Shown piece after piece: positions 59,101-62,100 of a DNA stretch of 64,000 nucleotides (position 1 is its first letter; each line of letters begins with the position of its first letter). The position numbers are program-made. Source of the DNA: Escherichia coli (lineage in GTDB: Bacteria > Pseudomonadota > Gammaproteobacteria > Enterobacterales > Enterobacteriaceae); the NCBI RefSeq assembly GCF_013315695.1, contig NZ_CP054353.1; one strand, 5' to 3'.

Positions 59101-62100
59101 GCCTGGTTTAGTAAGGCGTCATACTGCGCGTTTTTCCAGTGGCCGACATTTTCCTCGCTATCGCTCTTAAGCGTGTTCAGAAAGGTGGAGGCATCATTGT
59201 ACGTCGCATCCCACGACTGCCGAGACAACATGAAATCACCGGCTCGTCGGGCATCAAGATAAGTTTTCCACTCCATTGTGCGCAGCGTCACCTGTGCACC
59301 CAGCCATTTTTTCCATTCGGAAGACAACGCTATCGCGGTCTTTTCATGCAGATCGTACTTGTTGTAGAACAGCTCAAAGCGAAGCGGATGAGAGGCGTCG
59401 TATCCCGCCTGTTTCAACAAGGCTTTTGCCATCGCGACGCGCTCACTCAGCGGCTTTTGCAGTTCATCGAACGTCGTCGCGCTAAAGCCTTTTACCTCTG
59501 GCGGCGTCAGCGTAGTTGCGGGCGTTCTCAACCCCAGTACCTTTTGCGCAATAAGCTGTCGATCAACCGTAAGATATAGCGCCCGACGCACCCGCACATC
59601 GTTAAATGGCGGTTTCTCAAGGTTGAAGTTGTAATATTCGCTGTTCAGACGCGGAATAATTCGTAGCTCGCCAGGCAGTGATTTTTCAATGGCGGGAATT
59701 TGCTGCGCCGGAACCCAGGTGAGATCGACCTCTCCCGCGCGATAGCGGTTATAGCCGGTGACCGAATTATCCAGCGCCAGATACTCAACCTGTTGCAATA
59801 CTGTATGTTGCGCATCGCGGTACTTTGGATTTTTGCGTGCAGTAATCTTTTCGTTAACTACCCACTGATCAAGCACAAAGGCACCGTTGTAAACCATGTT
59901 CTCTGGCTTACTCCAGCTATCGCCATGTTTAGCGATGACATGATGAGGAACCGGGAACAGCGTCGGCCAGGCGAGCATCGTCGTGAACCAAGGAACTGGC
60001 TGCTCAAGCGTAACTTCAAGAGTACGATCATCCATCGCTTTGACACCCAGCGATGTAACATCTGCTTTACCCGCAACAATAGCCGCGGCATTGTTAATGT
60101 GCGCCTGTGCCAGATAGCCAGCAAAAGGGCTTGCCGTTTTCGGGTCAACCGCACGTTGCCAGCCGAGGACAAAATCCTCTGCTGTCAGAGGCTGACCGTC
60201 TGACCACTGCAAACCGCTACGCAGATGGAAAATATAGCGCTTGCCGCCGTCCAGTATCTCCCAGCGTTCAGCCTGAGCGGGCTGCACCTGGCCTTCACCG
60301 TCCATCCATACCAGACCTTCAAACAGATCCAGCACAATCTGCGCGGCAGTATTCTCCTCTACCTTTTGCGGGTCGAGCGTGCCTGGGTCGCTATGATTGT
60401 TGTAACGAAAAACTTGTTGCGGGGCGAGCGGTGTGTTGGCGGGAACGTCAGCAGCGTAGAGAGGAGCCGCACTTACCAGGCTGACCAGCCATAATAAATT
60501 TCGCGTATACATGGTATTCCTTACCGGAGAAATTATAAGCCCGACAACAATACGCCTGTGGCATTGTTAGCTCAAACTTATCGCGAGTGATTTGGCTCAC
60601 ACTCCGGTAAAGATTCCCCATCACGCTAACGGTACATAAACATCCGTTTCCAGTCGCTGCTCTGTCATCCCTTCGGCAAGATTGGTGTAGTGAAACAGGA
60701 TCGGGGCTTTGCGCATTTTTTCGCCGCTTGCCGGAAGCCAGTGGCGAATGATGCCCCATATCGTGTGTGAAATATCGTCCAGCTCGCCAACATGGCGGGC
60801 CACAGCATAACGTCCACCGGTAAGTTCACCATTACTTACGCCATAACGATTATCGGGGATCGGTTCGCTAACGCTGCCGCAGATATCAAAGCGAAACGCT
60901 TCTGGTGCGGTGGTGGCAGGGTCGTCCCAGGCGACGCCAAAAGTCTGGCTTTGGTTAACAGGAGAAAGCCCCGTCTCTTTACGCCACATGATAAATTTCG
61001 CCACGCTGTAGTTGAGCAACTCAGGGCTACAGCGGTGCGGCAACATCGCCACAGGGATTGAGGGGAAATCGATAATATTTACATCCAGTGTCAGGTTTGT
61101 CATTTTGCCTCCCTGCGAAATTATTCCCGGGAACGCGTCCCGGGAGCGGTAACAATTACGGATTTACTTTGCGGATCTGTTTGACGTCAATTTCAACAGA
61201 GTTCCAGTCTTTATCGACTTCACCCTGAATCTCAACCGTATCTTTCGGCGTCACCGTCACGCCGTTCCAGCGTTTGTGATCGATATCCACATTGATAGTA
61301 CCGCTGGCATCTTTGAACACGTAGAGATCGTCAGAGATGCGTTCAACGATATTGCCGCGCAGGGTTACCCAGGTGTCGTCACGCAGGGATTTTGCGCTTT
61401 CTACGGTCGTTACGCTGCCGTTCGGCCCCTGGAATCCTCCGGCCTGACTTTGCGTTGCCGATGGGCCAGAAAAACCTCCCTGCTCTGCTGCCATAACCGG
61501 TGCACTGCACAGGGCCATTACTGCGATTACTGCTGCGAATTTTTTCATGTTTATTACTCCCTTTAATGTCTGTTTCCGAGCATTTAACAAGATAGTCCTT
61601 AACAACTTCTTAAGGGAAAAAAATAAAATTTAATGCTGTACAGAGCGCGTTACAACACGGTTTACTGGCAGCAAATACGGTTATCGCAGGGATGAAAAAA
61701 TGCGAATTTTACTGATAGAAGATGACATGCTGATTGGCGACGGCATCAAAACGGGCCTTAGTAAAATGGGTTTTAGCGTCGACTGGTTTACACAAGGTCG
61801 TCAGGGAAAAGAGGCGCTATATAGCGCACCTTATGATGCGGTGATCCTGGATTTAACCTTACCGGGCATGGATGGTCGCGATATTTTGCGCGAATGGCGA
61901 GAAAAAGGTCAGCGTGAGCCGGTTTTGATCCTGACCGCGCGCGATGCGCTGGCGGAACGTGTAGAAGGGCTGCGTCTGGGAGCTGACGATTATCTGTGTA
62001 AACCTTTTGCGTTGATAGAAGTCGCCGCCAGGCTGGAAGCTCTGATGCGCCGAACCAACGGCCAGGCCAGCAACGAGCTGCGCCACGGCAACGTCATGCT

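What the first reader, a model, noticed from the sequence alone, without database searches (positions are those of the whole stretch)
60513..60620. Only 108 bp separate ygiS and ygiV: the mqsR-mqsA toxin-antitoxin pair is absent
In K-12 as I recall it, mqsA and mqsR lie between ygiS and ygiV. Here the two genes are nearly adjacent with no ORF between them. MqsRA is known to vary between strains.
Basis: partly seen in the sequence, partly recalled or inferred. Interest (0 to 1): 0.3.

Follow-up and report, generated by a model that had tools for sequence, protein, structure and literature searches.

The report
Empty mqsRA site between ygiS and ygiV
This E. coli strain lacks the MqsR/MqsA toxin-antitoxin pair that K-12 carries between ygiS and ygiV, but this is the ancestral and most common state of the locus and is already documented, so the finding is correct but ordinary.

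Summary
ygiS (58911..60512, -) and ygiV (60621..61103, -) are 108 bp apart, and no mqsR or mqsA lies between them or anywhere else in the window.

Aligned base by base, K-12 carries a 927-bp segment of 41% GC. It holds the mqsA terminator, mqsA, mqsR and the operator/promoter. The window has 5 bp (TTCCC, 60614-60618) in its place.

- **Frequency:** among 5,426 complete E. coli genomes, 3,124 have the uninterrupted junction and 2,299 have the cassette. The cassette is always at least 99% identical and never on a plasmid. The two states are essentially mutually exclusive.
- **Polarity:** E. albertii, E. whittamii and three other Escherichia lineages also lack mqsRA. Three of them keep the same spacer of about 110 bp, including the 5 bp. 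The window therefore shows the ancestral site, and K-12 has a horizontally acquired insertion.
- **Prior knowledge:** published work already reports both the patchy distribution and the insertion view.

Novelty: already known. Interest: low.

Side observations:
- The spacer is more conserved than the flanking genes and folds into a stable structure that covers the ygiS ribosome-binding site.
- An IS1 pair has inverted parC-plsC-ftsP and altered the ygiS C-terminus.
- ygiZ is also absent.

The parts
58911..60512 (-). ygiS, a periplasmic ABC substrate-binding protein of 533 aa. Its last 8 codons come from an inserted IS1, replacing the K-12 C-terminus YSKELYIKAH with GDAANLLI.
   Evidence: ORF. 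Pfam SBP_bac_5, E 9e-84. Annotated as ygiS in the identical genome. C-terminal comparison and the end of K-12 homology at 58938.
60513..60620 (.). The 108-bp ygiV-ygiS spacer: the unoccupied (ancestral) form of the site where K-12 carries mqsRA.
   Evidence: Contiguous in 3,124 of 5,426 E. coli genomes. Conserved in E. albertii, E. whittamii and locus L004.
60614..60618 (.). TTCCC (GGGAA on the gene strand): the 5 bp that the 927-bp mqsRA cassette replaces in K-12. Homology to K-12 runs up to 60613 on the left and resumes at 60619 on the right.
   Evidence: Base-by-base comparison. GGGAA or GGGGA is present in the outgroups.
60518..60613 (-). Predicted RNA structure that fills almost the whole spacer. 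A 12-bp outer stem joins its 5' arm (60613..60602) to its 3' arm (60529..60518). The 3' arm contains the ygiS Shine-Dalgarno UAAGGA at 60523..60518. The stem encloses two hairpins. Function is untested.
   Evidence: MFE -44.1 kcal/mol, z -4.41, 0 of 200 shuffles as stable. Consensus fold across species. The spacer is 94.7-96.9% identical to other Escherichia species, against 86.9-89.5% for ygiV and ygiS. There are no compensatory changes, so covariation is uninformative. No Rfam match.
60621..61103 (-). ygiV, a GyrI-like domain regulator of 160 aa. Its stop codon lies 2 bp from the K-12 insertion point.
   Evidence: It is 95.7% identical in nucleotides to K-12 ygiV.
61156..61548 (-). ygiW, a BOF/OB-fold protein of 130 aa, on the same strand upstream of ygiV.
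   Evidence: PF04076, E 8e-48.
61700..63705 (+). qseB (61700..62359) and qseC (62356..63705): divergent neighbours that anchor synteny with K-12.
   Evidence: Colinear with K-12 at 97.3% identity.

Best explanation
The window shows the ancestral, never-occupied form of the ygiV-ygiS junction. In the K-12 lineage and about 40% of sequenced E. coli, a self-contained 927-bp mqsRA module was inserted 2 bp after the ygiV stop codon. The module holds an operator/promoter with two MqsA palindromes, then mqsR, mqsA and its own terminator. The insertion replaced 5 bp (GGGAA on the gene strand). This strain's lineage never received it.

The consequences for the cell are inferred, not shown. There is no MqsR mRNA interferase and no MqsA repressor, so nothing attributed to MqsRA in K-12 can operate here. 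ygiS also lies directly downstream of ygiV, without the mqsA terminator that separates the two genes in K-12.

What is shown: the absence, the exact breakpoints, the population frequencies, and the same state in the outgroups. What is inferred: the direction of the event (insertion rather than deletion), horizontal origin, and any effect on ygiS expression.
For: 1. K-12 order and breakpoints. Window 60400-60613 matches K-12 at 98.6% and window 60619-60750 at 93%. Between them K-12 has 927 bp where the window has 5 bp.

2. Outgroups. E. albertii, E. whittamii, Escherichia sp. MOD1-EC7003, Escherichia sp. E1V33 and the divergent strain SCPM-O-B-8794 all lack MqsR and MqsA next to ygiV. Three of them keep a ygiV-ygiS gap of about 110 bp that aligns with the window across the junction, including the 5 bp.

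3. Composition. The cassette is 41.1% GC, against 52-53% for ygiS, ygiV and ygiW.

4. Cassette uniformity. It is at least 99% identical in all 2,299 carriers, while the flanks differ by 2-7% between lineages.

5. No scar. There is no remnant, IS element or repeat at the window junction. A genuine loss does leave one: strain H9Ecoli retains 63 bp of the cassette next to an IS1.

6. Mobility of the family. MqsA-family genes sit on plasmids of Rahnella, Pectobacterium, Yersinia and Pseudomonas at 54-67% amino-acid identity.

7. Published view. Chromosomal type II TA modules of E. coli, mqsRA included, are described as horizontally transferred units integrated in intergenic regions between core genes (PMC5120126).
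Against: - No target-site duplication, terminal repeats or integrase were found at the K-12 cassette ends. The insertion mechanism is therefore unknown.
- A precise ancient deletion that later spread cannot be excluded from the junction sequence alone.
- Only five outgroup loci were retrieved. E. fergusonii and genera beyond Escherichia were not sampled.
- The 42% cassette frequency is inflated by the many K-12 and B laboratory derivatives among complete genomes (visible).
- Phylogroup assignments were not computed.
Confidence: 0.9

Rival explanations
1. The strain's ancestors carried mqsRA and lost it through a clean deletion, so the 108-bp spacer is a deletion product.
For: TA loci do decay and get deleted in E. 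coli. One genome, H9Ecoli, shows an IS1-mediated deletion that removed part of mqsA through ygiZ. IS1 insertions in mqsR are also seen.
Against: The window spacer aligns across the junction with E. albertii, E. whittamii and locus L004, including the 5 bp that K-12 lacks. A deletion would have had to recreate the outgroup sequence exactly. There is no cassette remnant. The cassette has foreign GC content and almost no diversity.
Confidence: 0.05
2. mqsRA is present in this strain but has moved elsewhere (another chromosomal site, a prophage or a plasmid), so its absence here is only positional.
For: Only 64 kb of the genome is visible. MqsA-family genes do occur on plasmids in other genera.
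Against: Sensitive blastn of the mqsRA coding region against all 5,426 complete E. coli genomes hits 2,298 genomes. All hits are at least 99% identical and chromosomal, with none on plasmids. Occupied plus empty genomes sum to 5,423 of the 5,424 with any match, which leaves no room for empty-site genomes with a relocated copy. No homolog exists in the window.
Confidence: 0.03
3. The apparent absence is an assembly or window artefact, such as a collapsed region.
For: None specific.
Against: The identical junction is found in 3,124 independent complete genomes, four of them 100% identical over 1.4 kb.
Confidence: 0.01

Closest known systems
K-12 MG1655 ygiS-mqsA-mqsR-ygiV locus (b3020-b3023)
   Same: Same flanking genes, order and strand. 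The flanks are colinear at about 97.4% (ygiS side) and 97.3% (ygiV-qseC side) identity. The 101 bp upstream of ygiS are retained at 98%.
   Different: K-12 has 927 extra bp holding the mqsA terminator, mqsA, mqsR and the operator/promoter. The window has TTCCC in their place. The window also carries an IS1 in the ygiS 3' end and lacks ygiZ.
Empty-site ygiS-ygiV junction of other E. coli (e.g. strain 536, O157:H7 isolates, ST648) and of E. albertii and E. whittamii
   Same: The same uninterrupted spacer of about 108-110 bp, at 93-100% identity within E. coli and 94-97% to other Escherichia species.
   Different: Nothing at the junction itself. This strain differs only by the nearby IS1-bounded inversion.
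Published reports that mqsRA is patchily distributed and horizontally acquired
   Same: - mqsA is absent from 50 of 63 E. coli genomes (PMC5992433).
- mqsR is missing from UTI89 and from more than half of 55 non-K-12 genomes (PMC4513841).
- It is absent from O157:H7 (PMC5053249) and from AIEC strain NRG857c (PMC7232551).
- TA modules are described as integrated between core genes, with ygiV and ygiS named as the mqsRA neighbours (PMC5120126).
   Different: This work adds exact breakpoints, counts on 5,426 genomes and outgroup polarity. It adds no new concept.

Membership tests
MqsR/MqsA type II toxin-antitoxin locus | A gene encoding an MqsR-family toxin (about 98 aa) | tested here: not met
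   tblastn of K-12 MqsR against the whole window gives a best E-value of 0.63. No ORF of at least 20 aa lies inside the spacer.
MqsR/MqsA type II toxin-antitoxin locus | An adjacent gene encoding an MqsA-family antitoxin (zinc finger plus HTH, about 131 aa) | tested here: not met
   tblastn of K-12 MqsA against the window gives a best E-value of 3.4.
MqsR/MqsA type II toxin-antitoxin locus | MqsA operator palindromes (ACCT N2-4 AGGT) upstream of the operon. They occur twice in the K-12 cassette, at L001 13576-13592 and 13608-13624. | tested here: not met
   The K-12 copies were seen. The pattern does not occur in the spacer. It occurs twice in the whole window (4320 and 63799), against 1.19 expected by chance.
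Ancestral (unoccupied) ygiV-ygiS junction | Homology runs uninterrupted across the junction to species outside E. coli, including the bases that the cassette displaces | tested here: met
   Alignment A1 with E. albertii, E. whittamii and locus L004. The spacer is 94-97% identical.
Ancestral (unoccupied) ygiV-ygiS junction | No remnant of the cassette and no IS or repeat scar at the junction | tested here: met
   Strain H9Ecoli, with an IS1 scar, provides the contrast.
Horizontally acquired cassette (applies to the K-12 allele) | Atypical base composition and very low diversity compared with the flanks | tested here: met
   41.1% GC against 52-53%. At least 99% identity in all 2,299 carriers, against 93-98% for the flanks.
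Horizontally acquired cassette (applies to the K-12 allele) | Recognisable mobility signatures: target-site duplication, terminal inverted repeats, or an integrase or transposase | tested here: not met
   No repeats coincide with the cassette ends at L001 12821 and 13747.
Cis-regulatory RNA leader of ygiS (hypothetical) | A stable structure beyond chance, and sequence conservation above that of the neighbouring genes | tested here: met
   z -4.41. 94.7-96.9% identity against 86.9-89.5% for the genes.
Cis-regulatory RNA leader of ygiS (hypothetical) | Compensatory base-pair changes that support the helices | tested here: inconclusive
   0 of 37 pairs show a change on both sides. There are 7 wobble-compatible single changes and 6 unpaired cells. 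The sequences are too similar to test this.
Cis-regulatory RNA leader of ygiS (hypothetical) | The 5' arm is transcribed together with ygiS (transcription start upstream of 60613) | not testable with these tools
   No transcription-start data are available. A perfect -10 TATAAT lies inside the structure and may start transcripts that lack the 5' arm (sequence). The consensus promoter scan found no site in the spacer.

The most novel reading that the evidence does not exclude
The 108-bp spacer may be more than leftover intergenic DNA. It could be a conserved, single-copy, structured RNA element of about 96 nt (60518-60613, - strand). Its outer stem sequesters the ygiS Shine-Dalgarno sequence, which would control ygiS translation or insulate it from ygiV read-through. 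The mqsRA cassette would then have landed exactly at the element's 5' edge and brought its own terminator, leaving the element intact. No Rfam family matches it.
Probability: 0.2. Interest if true: 0.3.

Novelty: already known. Interest (0 to 1): 0.08.

Why it matters
This matters little beyond bookkeeping. It identifies the strain as one of the majority of E. coli that lack MqsRA. Phenotypes attributed to MqsRA in K-12 (effects on biofilm, bile and persistence, which are themselves disputed; PMC6918082) therefore cannot apply to it.

The exact breakpoints and outgroup polarity give a clean example of a TA module inserted into a core intergenic region. They also give a natural mqsRA-free reference for judging polar effects of engineered mqsRA deletions on ygiS.

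Tried and rejected
- **Population count with a 1,401-bp query.** This could not separate empty from occupied sites, because the tool joins pieces up to 1,200 bp apart. I repeated it with a 205-bp junction query.
- **Terminal direct or inverted repeats or a target-site duplication at the K-12 cassette ends.** None found.
- **Divergent mqsRA paralogs in E. coli.** Sensitive blastn found none.
- **Rfam families in the spacer.** None at E<=1.
- **Sigma-70 promoter and terminator consensus scan of the spacer.** It found only one weak terminator-like hairpin (60564..60552), no better than shuffled sequence gives.
- **Covariation test of the spacer structure on 10 sequences.** Uninformative, because the sequences are nearly invariant.
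- **Divergence peak next to the cassette as a sign of co-imported flanking DNA.** The first 225 bp or so of ygiV are 92-93% identical, but similar dips occur elsewhere in ygiS and qseC, so this was not pursued.
- **Strain '042' as a phylogroup D carrier.** The record NZ_CP042934.2 is 4.69 Mb, and I could not confirm that it is the classic 042 strain, so I made no phylogroup claim.
- **Ramisetty & Santhosh 2016 (FEMS Microbiol Lett).** The paper is not held. Its conclusions are cited only through PMC5120126.

Full report
**Observation**

The window has a 533-codon ORF at 58911..60512 (-) and a 160-codon ORF at 60621..61103 (-). The first matches Pfam SBP_bac_5 (E 9e-84) and the second matches GyrI-like (E 5e-36). 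RefSeq annotates them as ygiS and ygiV in genomes that are 100% identical over this region.

The ygiS start codon occupies 60510-60512 and the ygiV stop codon occupies 60621-60623.

No ORF of at least 20 aa lies inside the spacer. One mechanical 103-aa ORF (60448..60759, -) crosses it out of frame with both genes and has no Pfam match.

**Comparison with K-12**

The MG1655 record lists ygiS (b3020), mqsA (b3021), mqsR (b3022), ygiV (b3023), ygiW and qseBC in that order.

- Window 60400-60613 aligns to K-12 without gaps at 98.6% identity, and window 60619-60750 aligns at 93%.
- Between these blocks K-12 has 927 bp (L001 12821-13747), while the window has 5 bp, TTCCC at 60614-60618.
- Read on the gene strand, the K-12 segment begins 2 bp after the ygiV stop codon. 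It contains the operator/promoter with two ACCTAAAAGGTTA palindromes, then mqsR, mqsA and a GC-rich hairpin with a T-run that abuts the ygiS upstream region.
- Neither direct nor inverted repeats mark its ends.

**Is mqsRA elsewhere?**

Nothing in the 64-kb window resembles MqsR, MqsA or the cassette DNA. The MqsA operator pattern is absent from the spacer and occurs in the window only at chance frequency.

The rest of the genome is not available, but the population data speak to the question:

| Query | Result among 5,426 complete E. coli genomes |
|---|---|
| 205-bp junction | Contiguous in 3,124 |
| 927-bp cassette | Present in 2,299, all at least 99% identical, all chromosomal |
| mqsRA coding region, sensitive blastn | 2,298 genomes, no weaker hits, none on plasmids |

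Empty plus occupied genomes sum to 5,423 of the 5,424 genomes with any match. The two states are therefore alternatives at one locus, and empty-site genomes carry no second copy detectable at the DNA level.

**Polarity**

A scan of species-representative genomes with YgiV returned five loci: E. albertii, E. whittamii, Escherichia sp. MOD1-EC7003, Escherichia sp. E1V33 and the divergent strain SCPM-O-B-8794. None encodes MqsR or MqsA.

In three of them ygiS starts about 110 bp after ygiV. In the other two ygiS is degraded. Their spacers align with the window straight across the junction, including GGGAA or GGGGA where K-12 has the cassette.

Three further points agree with this:
- The cassette is 41.1% GC, against 52-53% for its neighbours.
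- The cassette shows almost no diversity, while the flanks differ by 2-7% between lineages.
- MqsA-family genes occur on plasmids of Rahnella, Pectobacterium, Yersinia and Pseudomonas at 54-67% amino-acid identity.

A real deletion looks different. Strain H9Ecoli keeps 63 bp of the cassette next to an IS1 that removed mqsR through ygiZ.

I conclude, with about 0.9 confidence, that the window carries the ancestral unoccupied site and that K-12 carries an acquired insertion. How the insertion happened remains unknown.

**What is already known**

- mqsA is absent from 50 of 63 E. coli genomes (PMC5992433).
- mqsR is missing from UTI89 and from more than half of 55 non-K-12 genomes (PMC4513841).
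- It is absent from O157:H7 (PMC5053249) and from AIEC strain NRG857c (PMC7232551).
- PMC5120126 describes E. coli chromosomal TA modules as horizontally transferred units integrated between core genes. It lists ygiV and ygiS as the mqsRA neighbours, with a terminator after mqsA and a putative ygiS promoter. It cites Ramisetty & Santhosh 2016 and Fiedoruk et al. 2015.
- The physiological roles once assigned to MqsRA in K-12 are themselves contested (PMC6918082).

The finding is therefore correct but already known.

**The spacer itself**

Read on the gene strand, window 60505-60625 folds to -44.1 kcal/mol. That gives a z-score of -4.41, and none of 200 shuffles folds as well.

A 12-bp outer stem pairs 60613..60602 with 60529..60518. 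The 3' arm contains the ygiS Shine-Dalgarno UAAGGA, 5 nt before the AUG. The stem encloses two hairpins.

The 97-nt core is 94.7-96.9% identical to other Escherichia species, whereas ygiV and ygiS are 86.9-89.5% identical. It occurs once per genome and matches no Rfam family.

Ten sequences show no compensatory change. They have 7 wobble-compatible changes and 6 unpaired cells, so the structure rests only on thermodynamics and conservation.

A perfect TATAAT lies inside the structure. Transcripts starting from it would lack the 5' arm. Whether the stem ever forms on ygiS mRNA is therefore open.

The K-12 cassette sits exactly at the 5' edge of this element and leaves it intact.

**Other things seen**

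- Two IS1 copies (52237-53009 and 58166-58938) are 773 nt long, 100% complementary and inverted relative to each other. They bracket parC-plsC-ftsP, which is inverted relative to K-12.
- One IS1 sits in ygiS codon 526 and changes the last residues of the protein. A 9-bp overlap of K-12 coordinates at the two junctions fits an IS1 target duplication split by the inversion.
- The configuration TRAP-binding-protein | IS1 | parC was found in only two of 5,426 genomes: MSB1_4I at 100% and AF3 at 99.9%.
- A 592-bp K-12 segment holding ygiZ is missing after qseC, at 63706-63710.

Noticed in passing
window 60518-60613 (- strand): The ygiV-ygiS spacer folds into a very stable three-helix structure (-44.1 kcal/mol, z -4.4). 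Its outer stem covers the ygiS Shine-Dalgarno sequence. The spacer is more conserved across Escherichia species (95-97%) than the flanking genes (87-90%), occurs once per genome, and has no Rfam match. No covariation is available, and the transcription start is unknown.
   Followed up: partly
window 52237-53009 and 58166-58938 (IS1 pair), with 53010-58165 between them: Two identical IS1A copies in inverted orientation bracket a 5.2-kb segment holding parC, plsC and ftsP. The segment is inverted relative to K-12. A TRAP transporter operon is split and partly deleted. The arrangement was found in only 2 of 5,426 complete genomes (MSB1_4I and AF3), which is a possible undercount.
   Followed up: partly
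window 58911-58938: One of the IS1 copies is inserted at codon 526 of ygiS. The last 10 residues (YSKELYIKAH in K-12) are replaced by 8 IS1-encoded residues (GDAANLLI). RefSeq still annotates the gene as intact.
   Followed up: partly
window 63706-63710: A 592-bp K-12 segment containing ygiZ (DUF2645) is absent between qseC and mdaB, and about 5 bp stand in its place. This is a second small K-12-specific segment missing within 3 kb of the mqsRA site.
   Followed up: partly
L008 (NZ_CP029180.1, strain H9Ecoli) 3001-3816: This strain has an IS1-associated deletion running from inside mqsA through mqsR, ygiV, ygiW, qseBC and ygiZ. It leaves 63 bp of the cassette. It is an example of genuine loss, and it removes the QseBC two-component system.
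   Followed up: partly
L003 5553-5892 and L005 3713-4110: In Escherichia sp. MOD1-EC7003 and Escherichia sp. E1V33, ygiS is reduced to fragments, while ygiV and ygiW are intact.
   Followed up: no
L011 (NZ_AP041137.1, strain WR14-2): ygiS is annotated as a pseudogene with an internal stop in this empty-site strain. Together with the degraded ygiS in L003 and L005, and with the IS1-altered C-terminus in the window, this suggests ygiS is often dispensable.
   Followed up: no
window 3203-7777 (-): A 1,524-codon ORF lies here, with a run of further minus-strand ORFs of 140-723 codons downstream at 8243-16667. I did not examine either. From memory only, this might be the yghJ/sslE type II secretion region.
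   Followed up: no
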